A stretch of DNA of 56,764 nt from Candidatus Tantalella remota (GTDB taxonomy: Bacteria; Omnitrophota; Gorgyraeia; Tantalellales; Tantalellaceae). The notes below the pieces were generated by a model. The model did no database searches, had not been told where the DNA came from, and was given only the letters and a program-made list of their open reading frames with translations. The stretch is from contig JAVCCB010000082.1 in NCBI GenBank assembly GCA_030765685.1, positions 1 through 56,764 of the forward strand. Reading direction: 5' to 3'. The position numbers and the translations under genes are program-made. Below, one piece after another: positions 1,330 through 8,481 of this stretch (positions are counted from its first letter, which is position 1; each line of letters starts with the position of its first letter).

Positions 1330-2094
1330 CTACTTGGGTATGACTATCTTATACTTCTTATTATAATGGCCTGATCTGCAAAATGATCGGTTACCTGTAC
1401 CAAAATCAACATTTTTAAGATCCACACGTTTTGCCCACGCATGATGGTGTTTTTCAGCTAAATACATAAAAAGTCTTTTTGTCTTAACAGAATTGCACTT
1501 TTCCAAAAGTTCCTGAATAAGCTGCGGACGAAGAGTTGTAAATCCTTCAAAGATGAGGTCCAATTCATCAAAAGATTCATTATTGCCCACGTCATAACAG
1601 AATTCCATGGCTGCTCTTTCAGTTGACGATATTTTTATTTCAAAATTGCCGCAGTCAAATACAACAAGCCCAAGTGACGGAACATCTTTAAACAGGCCGG
1701 TCATAGTGTAGCGTATTTGTACGTTCCAGGAATAATTTTTAAACCAGGCGGGAAGTTTTTCGTTTGGCAAACCAAAAAGAACAACCTTCTCTTGTATTAA
1801 TCGAGCAGATACATAATGTGCGTTTCCATGAAGCTCTATTGCAGTCTTTCCCGACGGATGAACAGCCATCTTTGCTTGTGACTGTAAGGTATACACCCCA
1901 CCAAGCCAATCAACCTTTTCACCAGCCCTTTTGTACGCACCTCGTCCTATACGTTCTATCCATCCACTTTTTACATAAATATCCGCAAGTTGATGATACA
2001 CGCCTTGCTCTCCGAGCCAAGGATAAACAGCAGCAACCCCCTTAGGCAAACTTTTAAGCAAATTGTTTATTATGCTTCCTTTACGTCTATTCAT
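1330..2094 (-). CDS. abiEi: AbiEi-family antitoxin/transcriptional regulator (type IV TA)
   Basis: N-terminal wHTH-like YVKSGWIERIGRGAY, SSTERAAME, LRPQLIQELLEKCNSVKTKRLFMYLAE; paired with AbiEii. Confidence 0.88.
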   Translation of the reverse strand: MNRRKGSIINNLLKSLPKGVAAVYPWLGEQGVYHQLADIYVKSGWIERIGRGAYKRAGEKVDWLGGVYTLQSQAKMAVHPSGKTAIELHGNAHYVSARLIQEKVVLFGLPNEKLPAWFKNYSWNVQIRYTMTGLFKDVPSLGLVVFDCGNFEIKISSTERAAMEFCYDVGNNESFDELDLIFEGFTTLRPQLIQELLEKCNSVKTKRLFMYLAEKHHHAWAKRVDLKNVDFGTGNRSFCRSGHYNKKYKIVIPK

Positions 2095-2337: not shown

Positions 2338-2897
2338 TGGGAATCGGGAATGGATCCAGGGTATCAGGTGATCAGGATATCCGGGACTGAGAGATCAGGC
2401 TATCAGGGAATTGGGGACAAATATCAGGAACAGTGAACTGGGAACAGTGAACAGCATATCTAAGTACCGGGTATCCCGCCTTCGCTGAAGCTTCCACCTT
2501 CGCCAAGGCTACGGCGGACGAGTCGGCGGACAGGCGGGTACCGAGTATCGGGCAAGCAAAAACTCAACCCAGATCCCTCGACTCCGACTCTTAGATCCTT
2601 CGAGTCGGCCCTTTGGGCCTCGCTCAGGATGACGAAATATACATGGTCGATACTCGTGAAAGCTTTCAAATTCGATACCGGGTACCGGGTATCGGGTACC
2701 GAGTATCGGGCAAGCAAAAGCTCAACCAGATCCCTCGACCCCCCCTGCAGCTGCTTTGTGCAGCAAAGCGCAGGGGTCGCTTCCGCCTTCGCTATCCGCT
2801 TTCGCTAAAGCTTCAGCGGACAAGAAGCTACCAGCCTTCGCTAAATCACTTATTCTTATCCAGCTTCGGCTGGCTTCGCGGCGGACAGGCGGAATGA
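2338..2897 (+). repeat. Mosaic intergenic repeat block: 7/8-nt tandem repeats, REP-like GATCCCTCGAC...GATGAC hairpins, nested mini-elements at 2475-2534 and 2782-2889
   Basis: Modules recur at 7860-8420, 10460-10620 and 29700-30110. Confidence 0.85.
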
Positions 2898-2988
2898 CAG
2901 TTTGAAATCAGGATTAGAGGAAATTATTGAATGACCTGCTTATCTCTAAGCAGCTGTTTGATCGAAGTAGCGGACTTATCTCTATATC

Positions 2989-3273
2989 TTAGGTAGACGA
3001 AGTCTGGTGCTTGAGGTGGGTCTGCTTCGCCCTCAAAAATGTTTTTTTACAAAAAGCCCTGCCTGACCCTGTCTTTAAATATCTTTCGAAACGTCTTGCT
3101 TTTTCTTCATTAGAAAAAGCAAGAAAATTTTTAACCTTCCAAGGCTTATGCCTGGTCGTATGCGGTACTCTGCCACTGTTGTGTTCCTTGAGCCGCATTT
3201 CAATGTTTTCAGTATATCCCGTGTACTTTTGCAATGGGTTAACTACTGACTGCAATTGGTATACATAATACAT
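2989..3273 (-). CDS. Small stand-alone GIY-YIG nuclease family protein
   Basis: YYVYQL...KYTGYTENIEMRLKEHN, TTRHKPW, ARRFERYLKTGSGRAF; C-terminus possibly extended by a frameshift. Confidence 0.9.
   Translation of the reverse strand: MYYVYQLQSVVNPLQKYTGYTENIEMRLKEHNSGRVPHTTRHKPWKVKNFLAFSNEEKARRFERYLKTGSGRAFCKKTFLRAKQTHLKHQTSST
2990..3020. repeat. Degenerate copy of tRNA-Leu 3' end plus trailer (att-like)
   Basis: taggtagacgaagtctggtgcttgaggtggg vs taggtaggcgaagtctggtgccggaggtggg (3484-3514), 28/31 identical. Confidence 0.8.
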
Positions 3274-3492
3274 AGGCCCGCCTTCGCTTATTACTTAATC
3301 TTATCTAGCTTCGGCGCGCAGACTTCGCCTTTCTTTAATGGCCTGCCAGACGAAGCCAGATACTATAAAAATAGGTAGGCTTTATAGGCCCGCCTTCGCT
3401 TATTACTTAATCTTATCTAGCTTCGGCGCGCAGACTTCGCCTTTCTTTAATGGCCTGCCAGACGAAGCCAGATACTATAAAAATAGGTAGGC
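3272..3492. repeat. Tandem duplication, 109-bp unit with 112-bp period (3272-3380, 3384-3492)
   Basis: Two apparently identical copies from ataggcccgccttcgc to ataggtaggc. Confidence 0.93.
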
Positions 3493-3498
3493 GAAGTC

Positions 3499-3585
3499 TG
3501 GTGCCGGAGGTGGGAGTCGAACCCACACGGAGTTTCCCCCACTGGATTTTGAATCCAGCGCGTCTGCCAGTTTCACCACTCCGGC
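3499..3585 (-). tRNA. tRNA-Leu(CAA), 87 nt, encoded CCA
   Basis: GCCGGAG acceptor stem, CTGGA-TTCAAAA-TCCAG anticodon arm, long variable arm, GGTTCGACTCC T-arm, ACCA end. Confidence 0.97.
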
Positions 3586-3606
3586 ACATGTATCTAAGAA
3601 AAAACA

Positions 3607-3635
3607 ATTGTATTATCCCTGCAACTATAAGTCAA
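3607..3635 (-). promoter_or_regulatory. sigma70 promoter of tRNA-Leu
   Basis: TTGACT-17 nt-TACAAT just upstream of the tRNA. Confidence 0.75.
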
Positions 3636-3642
3636 GTTCCTT

Positions 3643-3876
3643 AGATCCCTCGACTCCTCTGCTTCGGCTTTTTTGGCTTCGCAGAAGTCGCTCCCGCCGT
3701 TGCTATCCGCTTTCGCTAAAGCTTCAGCGGACAAGAAGCTATGGCGGACAGGCGGGATGACATCATGGGTACCGAGTATCCCTCCTTCCTCCTTCGCCAA
3801 CCTATTTAGGTTTTATCTGGCTACGACGGACTTCGTCGCTGAAACTACGTCGGACAGGCGGGTATCGGGTATCGAG
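3643..3876 (+). repeat. REP-like hairpin and heptamer array carrying nested mini-elements (3693-3752, 3780-3858)
   Basis: 30+30 nt and 30+49 nt nested units. Confidence 0.85.
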
Positions 3877-3887
3877 CAATCTCCGAA

Positions 3888-5528
3888 TTACGAACTCCCA
3901 ACTACGAACTCTATTAGCGACGGGTCGTAATCTTCGACGTTCTCATAACCCAATAGGTTTAGTATCGTTCCCGCTACGTTGGAAAGGCCGCGTTTAGGCA
4001 GTTCTTTCATTTTATATTCACCCGCGTACTGCGGGTCGTATATAGCGAACGGTACCGGATTTAGTGTATGCGCGGTCTTGGGCACATGCTCACCGTTCTT
4101 TACCGAGAACATCTCGTCAGAGTTCCCGTGGTCGGCGATTATTATGGCTATTCCGTCCAGCTCCTTGACCACGTCTAATAGCTGCTGCACGCAACCGTCC
4201 ACGGTCTCAACGGCCTCTATCACGGCTTCGGGGACCGCAGTATGACCGACCATATCGCCGTTAGCAAAATTAAGCCTGCCGAACCGGAATTTCCCGCTTT
4301 TAAGCAGCTCTGTGGTTTTCGCAGTTATCTCCGGAGCTTTCATCTTAGGAGCTTTATCAAACTGTATCCTGTCCGACGGGATCTCAAAATATTCCTCAAA
4401 ATCTTCACAAATATACCCGGATTTGTTCCCGTTCCAGAAATATGTCACATGTCCGTATTTCTGTGTTTCCGACAGAGCGAACATCCTCACCTTCTCGGCA
4501 CACAGGTACTCACACACGGTCCTGTCTATTTCAGGAGGCGTGACCAGATATTTTTTAGGGATATGCAGGTCACCGTCATATTCCATCATCCCGGCATAAA
4601 TAACGGAAGGAAAACGCTCACGGTCAAACTCGTTGAAATCCTTTTCTTCAAAGGCGCGGGAGATCTCTATCGACCGGTCTCCTCTATAGTTAAAGAACAC
4701 TACACAATCCCCGTTCTCTATGCGGCCGACCGGCTCATCATTCTCGGCCACTACAAAAGGCTCCATATACTGGTCGGTGATGGCGGCGTCTTCGGTGTAG
4801 TAAGTCTGGACCGCTTCCTTGGCTGAAGAAAACAACCGCCCTTTTCCCAGGACATGCGTGTCCCACCCTCTTTTAACAACACTCCAGTCAGCGTTATACC
4901 GGTCCATAGTCGTTATCATCCGGCCGCCTCCGGAAGCTATTCGATAATCATAACCTTTTTCGGCACGGATCCTTTCCAGGACCTCTTCCGTTCTTTCTAT
5001 GTATTCAAGCGCTGATTTCGCGGGCACGTCACGTCCGTCAAGAAGAGCGTGTATTCTCACCTTCTTCACTTCTTCCTTTGCCAGATGCTGGATCATGGCA
5101 TAAAGCTGGTCAATATGAGAATGGACGTTGCCGTCCGATAAAAGACCTAAAAAATGAAATGCACCGCCGGTTTTCTTAACGTGTAACACCAGTTCTTTCC
5201 AGGTATCGGTATTAAAGATAGCCCCTTCTTCTATAGCGTGGTTGACCCTTTTTGCGCCCTGATCGAATACCCTGCCCGCGCCAAGAGCATTGTGTCCCAC
5301 TTCGCTGTTACCCATATCTTCGTCCGAAGGAAGCCCCACTGCCGTCCCATGCGCCTGCAATGTAGTATAAAGCTCCGAACCAAACAGTTTATCAAGGCAT
5401 GGTGTTTTCGCCACGTAAACAGCGTTGGTCTCGTCTTGCTTACCTATACCCACACCGTCCATTATTATCATTAAAAGCGGACCTTTTCTGGGCGTGAAGT
5501 TTTCCAGTTTTTTTAAGCTTAATTCCAT
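3888..5528 (-). CDS. gpmI: 2,3-bisphosphoglycerate-independent phosphoglycerate mutase
   Basis: IMDGVG, MGNSEVGH, SDGNVHSH, DGRD, ETQKYGHVTYF, NGDMVGH, ADHGN, TAHT. Confidence 0.97.
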   Translation of the reverse strand: MELSLKKLENFTPRKGPLLMIIMDGVGIGKQDETNAVYVAKTPCLDKLFGSELYTTLQAHGTAVGLPSDEDMGNSEVGHNALGAGRVFDQGAKRVNHAIEEGAIFNTDTWKELVLHVKKTGGAFHFLGLLSDGNVHSHIDQLYAMIQHLAKEEVKKVRIHALLDGRDVPAKSALEYIERTEEVLERIRAEKGYDYRIASGGGRMITTMDRYNADWSVVKRGWDTHVLGKGRLFSSAKEAVQTYYTEDAAITDQYMEPFVVAENDEPVGRIENGDCVVFFNYRGDRSIEISRAFEEKDFNEFDRERFPSVIYAGMMEYDGDLHIPKKYLVTPPEIDRTVCEYLCAEKVRMFALSETQKYGHVTYFWNGNKSGYICEDFEEYFEIPSDRIQFDKAPKMKAPEITAKTTELLKSGKFRFGRLNFANGDMVGHTAVPEAVIEAVETVDGCVQQLLDVVKELDGIAIIIADHGNSDEMFSVKNGEHVPKTAHTLNPVPFAIYDPQYAGEYKMKELPKRGLSNVAGTILNLLGYENVEDYDPSLIEFVVGSS

Positions 5529-7787: not shown

Positions 7788-8481
7788 AGTACCGGGTATC
7801 GGGTACCGGGTATCGGGCAAACCGGAGCTGGTTTAGGGGTTTAGTTTTGGAAACTGGAAACAGATCCAGGATATCAGGGAATCAGGGGTATTGGGGACAA
7901 ATATCAGGAACAGTGAACAACATATCTAAGTACCGGGTATCGGGTACCGAGTATCGGGCAAGCAAAAGCTAAACCTAGATCCCTTGGTTCGGCCTTACGG
8001 CCTTCGCTCCCGCCTTCCTCCTTCGCCAACCTATTTAGATTTTATCTGGCTACGGCGGACTTCGTCGCTGAAGCTTCCACCTTCGCCAAGGCTACGGCGG
8101 ACGAGTCGGCGGACAGGCGGGATGACAGTGAGGGACTCAACCAAAACCCCGTAACCCGAGACAGGGGATCAGGGAATCAGGCGATTGGGGACTAGGAAAT
8201 CAGGGAATCAGGGAATTGGGGACAAATATCAGGAACAGTGAACAACATATCTAAGTACCGGGTATCGGGTACCGAGTATCGGGCAAGCAAAAGCTAAACC
8301 TAGATCCCTCGGTTCGGCCTTAAGGCCTTCGCTCCCGCCTTCCTCCTTCGCCAATCTATTTAGATTTTATCTGGCTACGGCGGACGAGTCGGCGGACAGG
8401 CGGGATGACAGTGAGGGGCTCTATTGGACACGCAGTCGAGAAATCTGGTACTAAATACTGCATACTGAATACTAAATACTG
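7788..8481 (+). repeat. Mosaic repeat block with two related ~220-270-bp direct copies; nested elements at 8009-8117 and 8334-8400
   Basis: ttggggacaaatatcaggaacagtgaacaacatatctaagtaccgg...cgggatgacagtgaggg occurs twice; the second copy lacks 42 nt between repeated ggctacggcggac. Confidence 0.88.

What the first reader, a model, noticed from the sequence alone, without database searches (positions are those of the whole stretch)
2831..3635. Candidate master locus: GIY-YIG nuclease at the tRNA-Leu 3' end flanked by the hairpin-element family
Seen: starting at the tRNA's CCA is a 48-nt hairpin (3501-3454, ccagacttcgcctacctattt...tatctggcttcgtctggcagg). It matches the dispersed 49-nt element (cttcgccaacctattt...tatctggctacggcgg). 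An opposite-strand partner (3389-3435) matches the 48-nt insert at 2831-2878, and a decayed copy follows the gene. The nuclease is co-oriented with the tRNA promoter. Known: REP/REPIN families are tied to a flanked RAYT HUH nuclease, and GIY-YIG domains occur in homing and Penelope elements. Inference: this is a REPtron-like system in which a small GIY-YIG protein, not a RAYT, spreads short hairpins. It is my best candidate for an undescribed system.
Basis: partly seen in the sequence, partly recalled or inferred. Interest (0 to 1): 0.88.

Follow-up and report, generated by a model that had tools for sequence, protein, structure and literature searches.

The report
tRNA-end GIY-YIG nuclease with hairpin repeats
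A tiny nuclease gene and its own pair of DNA hairpins sit exactly at the end of a tRNA gene, the same arrangement recurs in many bacterial phyla, and it looks like a new relative of the recently described Ssn nuclease-plus-hairpin systems.

Summary
tRNA-Leu(CAA) (3499-3585, minus strand) is followed from its CCA by two hairpin modules in opposite orientation. The block is duplicated as a perfect 112-bp tandem. Then comes a 94-aa GIY-YIG ORF (2989-3273). The modules belong to a family of 72-86 copies in this genome.

The link between nuclease and hairpins is real and general:
- Of the 80 best homolog loci from many phyla, 59 lie 19-498 nt (mostly 93-200) downstream of a co-oriented tRNA or tmRNA gene.
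- In 48 of those 59, a hairpin of the same build starts right after the CCA.
- Among 36 genomes of the window's family, hairpin copy number tracks this GIY-YIG clade and does not track RAYT genes.

"Undescribed" is only partly right. Chenal et al. 2025 described Ssn: single-domain GIY-YIG nucleases flanked by multicopy hairpins that they cut as single-stranded DNA. This genome also carries a canonical Ssn locus on another contig.

The window's system differs in protein clade (79 aa, closest to UPF0213/Slx1), in hairpin motif, and in its anchoring to tRNA/tmRNA ends. That anchoring is absent from the main text of that paper.

That the nuclease spreads the hairpins is still inference.

The parts
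3607..3635 (-). Promoter-like site (TTGACT, 17 nt, TACAAT) about 21 nt upstream of the tRNA
   Evidence: 10 of 12 matches. It is a consensus match only. The scan found no minus-strand terminator-like site between the tRNA and the ORF.
3499..3585 (-). tRNA-Leu(CAA), intact. Its 3' CCA (3501-3499) is the first three bases of the hairpin stem.
   Evidence: Rfam tRNA, 53.6 bits.
3454..3501 (-). Hairpin module 1, same orientation as the tRNA. It has a 5' arm CCAGACTTCGCC, an A/T-rich loop and a 3' arm GGCTTCGTCTGG, followed by CAGG.
   Evidence: nhmmer E 1.8e-6; covariance model 47.4 bits. The same element follows 10 other tRNAs of this genome.
3431..3441 (-). Inverted copy (GGCGAAGTCTG) of the 5' arm. 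It forms the 11-bp long-range stem of the 118-nt unit.
   Evidence: minimum-energy fold of 3384-3501. An equivalent inverted arm is present in 43 of 59 cross-phylum loci.
3388..3430 (+). Hairpin module 2, in the opposite orientation.
   Evidence: family member, E 1.6e-5; D8, 88% to 2845-2870.
3272..3383 (-). Second copy of the 112-bp two-hairpin unit (perfect tandem duplicate of 3384-3492). It ends at the ORF's start codon. In relatives the equivalent module supplies GGAGGA just upstream of the start.
   Evidence: (D1, 100%). Contigs of three public runs bridge the junction 3383/3384 without differences (records 5, 19, 27).
3034..3273 (-). GIY-YIG core of the ORF (residues 1-80), homologous to a 79-aa family
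   Evidence: invariant Y5, Y17, R27, H31, E63; pLDDT 93-97 in blocks 1-70, 79 in block 71-80; UPF0213, Slx1.
2989..3033 (-). C-terminal extension of about 14 codons, found in no homolog. It reads through into the element's 3' arm and the pseudo-tRNA end.
   Evidence: alignment columns 115-128 filled only by the window protein; pLDDT < 50 for residues 81-94.
3021..3030 (-). Motif GCGAAGCAGA abutting the pseudo-tRNA end. The same junction motif occurs in L016 and L009.
3005..3020 (-). Pseudo 3' end of the tRNA: T-stem 3' strand, acceptor 3' strand and CCA, with 2 mismatches to the intact tRNA
   Evidence: D12. Analogous tRNA-part repeats bracket homologs in relatives.
2945..3004 (-). Copy of hairpin module 1. 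The first 15 nt carry 1 mismatch and the rest is decayed.
   Evidence: D12. The decayed remainder was judged by eye.
2831..2878 (+). Solo hairpin (outer stem CCAGCC / GGCTGG) inserted into another repeat
   Evidence: D6, D8; two 100% identical copies on contig C1.
3787..3831 (+). Dispersed-type hairpin copy on the other side of the tRNA
   Evidence: E 6.2e-12; 69.9 bits.

Best explanation
The ORF belongs to a widespread clade of about 79-aa, single-domain GIY-YIG nucleases. Each comes as a small cassette of about 350-500 nt. A structured leader of about 110 nt is built from two hairpin modules in opposite orientation. The first module starts exactly at the CCA end of a tRNA or tmRNA gene, and the ORF follows.

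The cassette has no promoter of its own and is most likely read through from the tRNA promoter. The second hairpin supplies the ribosome-binding site. The cassette is mobile: it sits at different tRNAs in related genomes.

By analogy with the Ssn/NTS system, the hairpins are most likely the nuclease's cognate sites, bound and cut as folded single-stranded DNA. In the window's lineage, ORF-less modules have multiplied to about 70-90 copies, including the trailers of 11 tRNAs. The window is then the one locus in this genome where this hairpin family and its nuclease are still together.

Shown here: the anatomy, the tRNA/tmRNA anchoring, insertion polymorphism, and co-occurrence. Inferred: co-transcription, hairpin recognition, and any role of the nuclease in spreading the modules.
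For: **One unit across phyla.**
- Of the 80 best loci, 62 have a tRNA/tmRNA within 400 nt, 60 are co-oriented and 59 have it upstream. These comprise 15 tmRNA and 12 tRNA isotypes.
- Chance expectation is about 1% (44 tRNAs in 2 Mb; my own estimate).
- 48 of 59 have three variable bases after the CCA followed by TTCG, TACG or a close variant. 43 of 59 have an inverted copy (<= 2 mismatches in 12) of that arm before the ORF.
- The three variable bases covary with their partner: 33 of 57 exact matches over 8 different triplets.

**Same cassette at different tRNAs in the window's family.** Val in G001, Asp in G004, Arg in G036, Ser in G006 and G015, Leu here.

**Insertion polymorphism.**
- Five orthologous tRNA-Leu(CAA)/iPGM loci are empty (G005, G007), carry a mini-hairpin (G001), a variant hairpin (G004), or a two-hairpin block without the gene (G006). 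None has the GIY-YIG gene.
- Tandem arrays occur (L009, period 491; L013).

**Horizontal spread.** The window protein is 56-61% identical to proteins of other phyla but 43% to the copy in its own genus.

**Co-occurrence in 36 family genomes.** 9 of 10 against 4 of 26 (Fisher 6.6e-5). Spearman is 0.49 with GIY-YIG score and -0.01 with RAYT count.

**Catalysis plausible.** Y5, Y17, R27, H31 and E63 are invariant. The fold is confident and nearest to UPF0213 and to Slx1, a structure-specific nuclease.

**Precedent.** Ssn enzymes of the same size bind hairpin repeats that flank their genes and cut single-stranded DNA beside them (PMC11893778).

**Transcription.** A promoter-like site lies upstream of the tRNA, with no terminator-like site before the ORF.
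Against: - No biochemical or expression data exist for this clade. No RNA run was available.
- Kin are not independent, so the Fisher and Spearman figures overstate the case.
- Hairpins occur where the clade was not found: G009 25 copies (96% complete), G008 7, G003 6, G034 4.
- Ten of the 11 tRNA trailers in this genome have no nuclease gene.
- In three other lineages the leader is hardly dispersed: 4 partial extra copies in a Geomonas genome, none outside the gene loci in two others. Multiplication is therefore not an inherent property of the cassette.
- Only 18 of 58 loci repeat leader sequence downstream of the ORF, and only 4 of 59 show a tRNA 3'-end repeat. The transposon-like "flanked" picture and the duplication seen here are not general.
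- The dispersed copies (outer stem TCCTCC or TCCGCC) resemble the second hairpin of cassettes in G001, G004 and G036 more than the window's own. The window gene may not be their source.
- Single hairpins are thermodynamically weak.
- The ORF has lost its normal stop and carries a disordered tail, so its activity is uncertain.
Confidence: 0.55

Rival explanations
1. Two independent residents of tRNA 3' ends. On this view the hairpins are an ordinary REP/BIME-like family spread by a RAYT (Y1 transposase) or by host recombination. The GIY-YIG gene is a separate selfish, homing-type gene that lands next to tRNAs or next to pre-existing hairpins.
For: - Two Y1_Tnp genes are present.
- One (contig C24) has two hairpin copies about 200-300 nt downstream of its ORF, and its ortholog in G001 also has one.
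- Ten tRNAs carry hairpins without the nuclease gene.
- G009 has 25 hairpins and no close GIY-YIG match.
- Other GIY-YIG clades in this genome also sit beside tRNAs without this hairpin.
Against: - Y1_Tnp occurs in 53 of 61 genomes and its count is uncorrelated with hairpin count (rho -0.01).
- G017 has 20 hairpins and no Y1_Tnp match, though it is only 75% complete.
- Only 1 of 14 RAYT loci scanned has a hairpin hit.
- The C24 RAYT is flanked by a different palindrome (TAACCTGG / CCAGGTTA).
- The hairpin build next to the GIY-YIG ORF is conserved across phyla, even where no dispersed copies exist. Chance co-location would not give that.
Confidence: 0.15
2. The leader is a cis-acting RNA element that handles tRNA 3' processing, stability or translational control for a cellular, non-selfish nuclease expressed with tRNA/tmRNA. 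The dispersed copies are then by-products such as trailers or terminator-like elements.
For: - The element starts at the CCA and pairs with it.
- The second hairpin carries a Shine-Dalgarno-like GGAGGA or GGCGGG 1-18 nt before the start codon.
- In G006 the same two-hairpin block precedes an unrelated gene.
- The conserved TTCG/TACG motifs are of the UNCG type that is stable in RNA (recalled, not tested).
- Dunin-Horkawicz et al. 2006 noted a fusion hinting that prokaryotic Slx1-like proteins may act in RNA metabolism.
Against: - The clade is patchy: 40 of 61 genomes match the query.
- It is multicopy or tandem in some genomes, and sits at 12 tRNA isotypes plus tmRNA.
- It differs in position within one genus and is closer to other phyla than to its congener.
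- Solo copies sit inside other repeats (2831-2878; long-form trailers), which indicates DNA-level insertion.
- No Rfam family matches the leader.
Confidence: 0.15
3. The block is the decayed remnant of an integrase-borne island that integrated into tRNA-Leu. The 31-nt repeat would be attL/attR and the GIY-YIG gene left-over cargo.
For: A direct repeat of the tRNA 3' end plus downstream bases (D12) is the classic signature of integration at tRNA genes (recalled).
Against: - There is no integrase-sized ORF between 2094 and 3888.
- The bracketed segment is only about 480 nt.
- The same gene-plus-leader unit recurs at many tRNAs and phyla without such repeats.
Confidence: 0.03

Closest known systems
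Ssn/NTS (SsnA, CDD cd10448) site-specific ssDNA nucleases with Ssn-related hairpin motifs. Chenal et al., Nat Commun 2025, PMC11893778. Read here: first part of Results, the section on the Ssn family, the Discussion, and term searches.
   Same: - Single-domain GIY-YIG protein of about 80-95 aa.
- Gene adjacent to hairpin-forming repeats that can reach tens to hundreds of copies per genome.
- Copy number is expanded only in some lineages.
- Distinct protein/hairpin pairs exist.
- The authors themselves note the IS-like architecture and the REP/RAYT analogy.
   Different: - Different protein clade. Against the NTS-flanked Ssn-type protein of this same genome (contig C11), identity is 35% over 40 aa (E 2e-4), confined to the GIY-YIG core, with a different C-terminal half.
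- The published SRM search pattern is absent from the flanks: none within 600 nt here, and 0 of 80 homolog loci within 500 nt.
- The hairpin has a 3x3 TTC/TWC internal loop.
- The cassette is anchored to the CCA end of tRNA/tmRNA genes. The words tRNA and tmRNA occur 0 times in that paper's main text. Its supplements could not be seen.
- No biochemistry exists for this clade.
REP/REPIN with RAYT (REPtron). Nunvar et al. 2010, PMC2817692; Bertels and Rainey 2011, PMC3116915. Only search listings and abstracts were seen.
   Same: - Short extragenic palindromes in many copies.
- Doublets in inverted orientation.
- Nested mosaic arrangements.
- One nuclease gene next to the repeats.
   Different: - The enzyme is GIY-YIG, not an HUH Y1 transposase.
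- The gene is usually flanked on one side only.
- It is anchored to a tRNA end.
- RAYT genes of these genomes do not track the hairpins.
Prokaryotic stand-alone Slx1-like / UPF0213 GIY-YIG proteins (PDB 1zg2, 1ywl). Dunin-Horkawicz et al. 2006, PMC1564403; passages read.
   Same: - Minimal GIY-YIG domain without auxiliary domains.
- Best sequence match in the PDB is 1zg2 (E 1.8e-13).
- Fold matches Slx1 at TM 0.62-0.64.
   Different: - That work treated the group as mostly vertically inherited repair enzymes.
- It reports no tRNA-gene context or hairpin repeats in the passages seen.
- This clade has its own C-terminal motif (FERYLKTGSG).
Free-standing GIY-YIG homing endonuclease SegB in the phage T4 tRNA gene cluster. 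PMC2330249; abstract seen.
   Same: A selfish GIY-YIG gene lodged among tRNA genes, promoting inheritance of its own region.
   Different: - SegB is a larger enzyme with a DNA-binding part (recalled).
- It is phage-borne and has no hairpin leader.
- This family has no match in 50,697 phage or 72,556 plasmid records at E <= 1e-5.

Membership tests
GIY-YIG superfamily (Pfam PF01541) | Profile match above the curated cut-off | tested here: met
   54.4 bits against a cut-off of 22.6, E 1.5e-14, residues 1-70.
GIY-YIG superfamily (Pfam PF01541) | Conserved catalytic-core residues (two Tyr, Arg, His, Glu). Their roles are recalled, not tested. | tested here: met
   Y5, Y17, R27, H31 and E63 are invariant in 37 sequences; core pLDDT is 93-97 in blocks 1-70.
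Ssn family (Chenal et al. 2025) | Single-domain GIY-YIG protein of about 80-150 aa | tested here: met
   homologs are mostly 78-83 aa with no other Pfam domain at E <= 1e-4.
Ssn family (Chenal et al. 2025) | Gene adjacent to hairpin-forming repeats that are multicopy in the genome | tested here: met
   (72-86 copies). (hairpins beside homologs).
Ssn family (Chenal et al. 2025) | Flanking repeats fit the published SRM degenerate search sequence (71% of SsnA homologs in the paper) | tested here: not met
   32 matches in the genome, none within 600 nt of this or any other GIY-YIG gene; 0 of 80 homolog loci within 500 nt.
Ssn family (Chenal et al. 2025) | Membership of CDD cd10448 / clade of N. 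meningitidis SsnA (tblastn E < 1e-10 in the paper) | not testable with these tools
   No CDD library and no SsnA reference sequence were at hand. As a proxy, the NTS-flanked Ssn-type protein of contig C11 aligns only over the core and has a different C-terminal motif.
Ssn family (Chenal et al. 2025) | Cleaves only single-stranded DNA next to its hairpin | not testable with these tools
   This needs a biochemical assay.
REPtron (REP + RAYT) | The linked enzyme is an HUH Y1 transposase (RAYT) | tested here: not met
   the linked gene is GIY-YIG. RAYT genes exist elsewhere but do not track the hairpins.
REPtron (REP + RAYT) | Nuclease gene flanked on both sides by the repeat in inverted orientation | tested here: inconclusive
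   In the window there are hairpins upstream and a decayed copy downstream. Across phyla only 18 of 58 loci repeat leader sequence downstream, and 7 of 58 do so in inverted orientation.
Free-standing homing endonuclease gene | Presence/absence polymorphism at orthologous sites | tested here: met
   5 orthologous tRNA-Leu loci lack the gene.
Free-standing homing endonuclease gene | Nuclease domain joined to a sequence-specific DNA-binding domain | tested here: not met
   79 aa, catalytic domain only.
Integrase-borne tRNA island | Integrase gene within the segment bounded by tRNA-derived direct repeats | tested here: not met
   the only ORF of a domain-bearing protein between the repeats is the GIY-YIG gene. 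The repeats themselves are present (D12).

The most novel reading that the evidence does not exclude
This could be a second, independent nuclease-plus-hairpin replicator, distinct from both Ssn/NTS and REP/RAYT. A 79-aa Slx1-like GIY-YIG enzyme would recognise a folded single-stranded hairpin with a TTC/TWC bubble and use it to insert its own cassette, and ORF-less hairpin modules, precisely at the CCA end of tRNA and tmRNA genes. It would borrow their promoters and sometimes duplicate the tRNA's 3' end from the T-loop onward. If so, it is among the smallest autonomous mobile elements known, it is spread over more than ten phyla, and it is a source of new programmable ssDNA nucleases.
Probability: 0.3. 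Interest if true: 0.85.

Novelty: new variant of a known kind. Interest (0 to 1): 0.7.

Why it matters
Ssn enzymes were presented in 2025 as the first site-specific nucleases for single-stranded DNA. Their biological role outside Neisseria is open.

Here a different clade of equally small GIY-YIG proteins shows the same pairing with its own hairpin. It adds a sharp, testable property: attachment to the CCA end of tRNA and tmRNA genes in about three quarters of loci across many phyla.

- This gives a defined target site and a natural expression route.
- It offers a second nuclease/hairpin specificity for ssDNA tools.
- The genome carries both systems side by side, so the two can be compared in one host.
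- It would explain a class of short repeats and odd small ORFs that clutter the intergenic regions of many uncultured bacteria.
- Cultured carriers (Geomonas, Prosthecobacter, Pseudaquidulcibacter) make experiments possible.

Tried and rejected
- **Expression.** No RNA holder was listed for the region, so expression could not be examined.
- **Public DNA contigs.** Four salt-lake metagenome runs were laid on 2400-4300. The contigs are short and break at the repeats. The listed joints have short sides (21-46 nt) and fit other copies of dispersed repeats. No empty or excised form could be read from them. The only usable point is that three runs bridge the 112-bp tandem junction.
- **Rfam.** Only tRNA and tmRNA match. 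Nothing matches the leader at E <= 1 in 9 loci.
- **NCBIfam.** No family for the window protein at E <= 1.
- **Phages and plasmids.** No protein-level match.
- **Literature.** Searches found nothing linking small GIY-YIG genes to tRNA ends or to REPs. One search was badly chosen and returned noise. One search found the Ssn paper.
- **Early reading abandoned.** I first took the hairpin to be merely a tRNA trailer and the GIY-YIG gene an unrelated tRNA-targeting cassette (note). I dropped this when cross-phylum loci showed the same hairpin build next to the ORF.
- **tRNA 3'-end duplication not general.** I expected it to be a hallmark. It is common among the window's class relatives but seen in only 4 of 59 cross-phylum loci.
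- **Faulty regex.** A regex for the distal arm was mis-specified and returned zeros. The valid test is the 12-mer search.
- **Insertion chemistry.** I compared junctions with the T-loop and with the TTCG motifs. This gave suggestive but inconsistent patterns and is not claimed.
Full report
**1. What is in the window**

On the minus strand, from high to low coordinates, the block reads as follows.
- A promoter-like site lies at 3635-3607.
- tRNA-Leu(CAA) occupies 3585-3499.
- A 118-nt unit begins with the tRNA's own CCA (3501-3384).
- A perfect second copy of 109-112 nt of that unit follows (3383-3272).
- A 94-aa ORF runs from 3273 to 2989. It matches Pfam GIY-YIG at E 1.5e-14.

The unit has four parts.
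- A 5' arm, CCAGACTTCGCC.
- A 3' arm, GGCTTCGTCTGG, which closes a hairpin with a 3x3 TTC/TTC internal loop.
- An exact inverted copy of the 5' arm (GGCGAAGTCTG), which gives the most stable fold of the whole unit (-19.6 kcal/mol, z -2.0).
- A second hairpin of the same family in the opposite orientation, which ends at the start codon.

The last 14 or so codons of the ORF have no counterpart in any homolog and are predicted disordered. They read through the motif GCGAAGCAGA into a 31-nt direct repeat (90%) made of the tRNA's last 16 nt plus the first 15 nt of the hairpin (D12). The scan found no minus-strand terminator-like site between the tRNA and the ORF.

**2. The hairpin family**

- Iterated nhmmer finds 72 copies in the 2.03-Mb, 96-contig genome. 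A covariance model built from 27 copies finds 86.
- RNAalifold recovers the two stems, with compensatory changes at 2 of 8 predicted pairs.
- Of 43 tRNAs examined, 11 are followed directly by the element. The outer stem always starts with the tRNA's CCA, and the next three bases covary with their partner (GAC/GTC, GCT/AGC, GCC/GGC).
- The remaining tRNAs mostly have ordinary terminators.
- Long-form trailers carry a mini-hairpin nested inside the 3' arm. The copy at 2831-2878 is an insertion into another repeat. These are DNA-level insertions.

**3. The nuclease and its relatives**

- Homologs are mostly 78-83 aa and share a C-terminal FERYLKTGSG motif. Y5, Y17, R27, H31 and E63 are invariant.
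- The model is confident (mean pLDDT 85.9; 93-97 in blocks 1-70).
- Its nearest solved relatives are UPF0213 proteins (1zg2, E 1.8e-13 by profile) and Slx1 (TM 0.62-0.64).
- A scan of one genome per species found at least 583 relatives.
- The 80 best loci come from Verrucomicrobiota, Kiritimatiellia, Planctomycetota, Alpha- and Deltaproteobacteria, Nitrospirota, Saccharibacteria, Cloacimonadota and others.

**4. The link to tRNA ends is general**

- Of those 80 loci, 62 have a tRNA or tmRNA within 400 nt. Sixty are co-oriented and 59 have it upstream, mostly 93-200 nt away.
- The 59 comprise 15 tmRNA genes and 12 tRNA isotypes.
- In 48 of the 59, the bases after the CCA are three variable bases followed by TTCG, TACG or a close variant.
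- In 43 of the 59, an inverted copy of that arm (<= 2 mismatches in 12) lies before the ORF.
- In 35 of the 59, the exact local partner of CCA plus three bases is present.
- The build is the same as in the window, down to a conserved TGGCA-N-GCC after the first hairpin.
- Among 29 loci from the window's class (all GIY-YIG clades mixed), 19 have a co-oriented tRNA/tmRNA within 400 nt.
- Five of these (G001, G004, G006, G015, G036) show the model-detectable pair of hairpins between tRNA and ORF, at tRNA-Val, Asp, Ser, Ser and Arg.
- More distant loci carry a variant that begins CCATTCTACTTCGCC.

**5. Mobility**

- Five informative orthologous tRNA-Leu(CAA)/iPGM loci were compared. Two are empty (G005, G007). 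G001 has a mini-hairpin plus terminator, G004 a variant hairpin, and G006 the two-hairpin block in front of an unrelated gene.
- None of the five has the GIY-YIG gene. None of those genomes' GIY-YIG matches lies on these contigs.
- In the congener G001 the gene sits, twice in tandem, at tRNA-Val(TAC). In the window's genome that tRNA has only a hairpin.
- The window protein is 56-61% identical to proteins from other phyla and 43% to G001's.
- Many class relatives are bracketed by direct or inverted repeats of part of the adjacent tRNA. Examples: L009, three identical copies of a 43-nt segment (longer by eye: tRNA 3' end plus hairpin) in an array of period 491; L013, 46 nt; L010, L016 and L025, 18 nt.
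- This duplication is not general across phyla. Four of 59 loci have a tRNA 3'-end repeat and 18 of 58 repeat leader sequence downstream.

**6. Does the nuclease go with the hairpin family?**

- In the 36 other genomes of the window's family, a close match (E <= 1e-13) was found in 10. Nine of them have >= 5 model hits.
- It was not found in 26, of which 4 have >= 5 (Fisher 6.6e-5). Spearman correlation between hairpin count and GIY-YIG score is 0.49.
- These genomes are related, so the tests overstate the association.
- Exceptions exist: G009 has 25 hairpins, G008 7, G003 6.
- RAYT-type Y1_Tnp genes are in 53 of 61 genomes, and their number is unrelated to hairpin count (rho -0.01).
- Of 14 RAYT loci scanned, only this genome's C24 locus has hairpin hits, and that gene is flanked by a different palindrome.
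- Elsewhere the leader is hardly dispersed. A Geomonas genome has 4 partial extra copies. A Kiritimatiellia genome has it only at its two gene loci. A 6.1-Mb genome has it only at the gene.
- The large copy number is therefore a lineage-specific expansion.

**7. What is already known**

- Chenal et al. 2025 (PMC11893778) described the Ssn family. These are single-domain GIY-YIG proteins of about 94 aa (CDD cd10448).
- Their genes are flanked by hairpin repeats (NTS/SRM) present in up to hundreds of copies.
- Four purified enzymes bind the hairpin and cut only single-stranded DNA beside it.
- The authors point out the IS-like gene architecture and the parallel with REP/RAYT.
- The main text of that paper mentions neither tRNA nor tmRNA. 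Its supplements were not available to me and may list homologs or contexts that bear on this.

**8. Is the window's system Ssn?**

- The published SRM search pattern has 32 matches in this genome, against 7-15 in mononucleotide shuffles. None lies within 600 nt of any GIY-YIG gene.
- It has 0 matches within 500 nt of the gene in the 80 cross-phylum loci. The paper reports 71% for SsnA homologs.
- The genome does hold a textbook Ssn locus elsewhere. A search pattern for the NTS-like core matches 124 places. A 95-aa gene on contig C11 is flanked on both sides by them.
- Against that protein, the window protein aligns only over the N-terminal core (35% of 40 aa, E 2e-4; profile comparison 97% probability over 66 columns). 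It has a different C-terminal half.
- CDD assignment could not be tested.
- I therefore treat the window's system as a sister of Ssn rather than a member. It has the same logic but a different protein clade, a different hairpin, and a tRNA/tmRNA anchor.

**9. How it most likely works**

Shown:
- a leader-plus-ORF cassette attached at the CCA;
- movement between tRNAs and between lineages;
- ORF-less modules inserted at tRNA ends and inside other repeats;
- co-distribution of modules and nuclease in one family.

Inferred:
- Transcription is by read-through from the tRNA promoter. The mRNA is released by tRNA 3' processing. Translation starts at a ribosome-binding site inside the second hairpin (GGAGGA in relatives, with ATT/ATA starts in three of them).
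- The protein binds its hairpin as folded single-stranded DNA and nicks nearby, as Ssn does and as the Slx1-like fold suggests.
- Such nicks at hairpins or at the T-arm of tRNA genes seed the copying of modules and the occasional duplication of the tRNA's 3' end.

I put about 0.85 on the cassette being a mobile unit tied to tRNA ends. I put about 0.55 on the hairpin being the nuclease's cognate site, and about 0.4 on the nuclease driving the spread of the modules. The insertion chemistry is unknown.

**10. Verdict**

The claim of an undescribed kind of system is overtaken by the Ssn paper. The claim that the nuclease spreads the hairpins remains a hypothesis.
- The tRNA/tmRNA anchoring, the distinct clade and hairpin, and the coexistence with a canonical Ssn system in one genome appear new in the literature I could search.

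Noticed in passing
G000 contig C11:7267-7554 (locus L198:568-855, plus strand); one repeat copy in the window near 30205 (minus strand): A canonical Ssn-type locus. A 95-aa GIY-YIG gene is flanked on both sides by repeats that fit the published Neisseria NTS consensus almost letter for letter. A search pattern for that repeat core matches 124 places in this 2-Mb genome. A second Ssn-type gene lies at C1:24887-25108.
   Followed up: partly
G000 C54:7603-8060 (L003); C55:1-330 with C51:23950-24579 (L004, L005); relatives L172, L173, L029, L030, L035: UPF0213-type GIY-YIG paralogs lie immediately upstream of tRNA genes (Gln, Ser, Pro, His, Asn). They sit inside direct repeats of the tRNA's leader and first 13-29 nt, so the break falls in the D-loop or anticodon stem. 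Orthologs in G002 and G036 lie 8-11 nt upstream of tRNA-Gln. Other small GIY-YIG clades thus also live at tRNA genes, but on the 5' side.
   Followed up: partly
G000 C79:13150-13520 (L002): A GIY-YIG ORF 43% identical to the window's sits between two hyp genes, not near a tRNA. It is enclosed by a 14-nt inverted repeat that looks like the two halves of a terminator stem, as if inserted into its loop.
   Followed up: no
G000 C24:503-1095 and C68:33035-34000 (L006, L007): Two RAYT-like Y1_Tnp genes. The C24 gene is flanked by a different palindrome (TAACCTGG ... CCAGGTTA), which also occurs downstream of the C68 gene. It may be their own REP family.
   Followed up: partly
window 2726-2830 and 3641-3741: A segment of about 100 nt (92% identical over its 62-nt core) is directly repeated on both sides of the whole tRNA-Leu/GIY-YIG block. 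It belongs to yet another dispersed repeat family with copies on several contigs. I did not resolve whether this bracketing means anything.
   Followed up: no
L162 (G001:C50), 150-400 nt downstream of tRNA-Leu(CAA): An 11-nt piece of the tRNA's 3' end (CCCACCTCCGG) occurs twice inside a repeat of about 100 nt, with no GIY-YIG gene present. It may be a footprint of an earlier cassette.
   Followed up: no
window 1330-2094 (minus strand): A 254-aa ORF with AbiEi_3 and AbiEi_3_N domains (type IV toxin-antitoxin / abortive-infection antitoxin family). I did not look for its partner gene.
   Followed up: no
window 2679-2710, 7789-7817, 7930-7958, 8162-8216, 17964-18036, 29745-29803, 37455-37586 and others: Intergenic regions are mosaics of many short tandem and dispersed repeat types, including a 14-mer GTACCGAGTATCGG, an 8-mer CAGGGAAT and 12- and 18-mers. 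This is unusually dense for a 2-Mb genome.
   Followed up: no
L163 (G008:C56), just after tRNA-Leu(CAA): The roughly 100 bases after the tRNA's CCA are withheld (read N) in this relative, so its state at the orthologous site could not be read.
   Followed up: no
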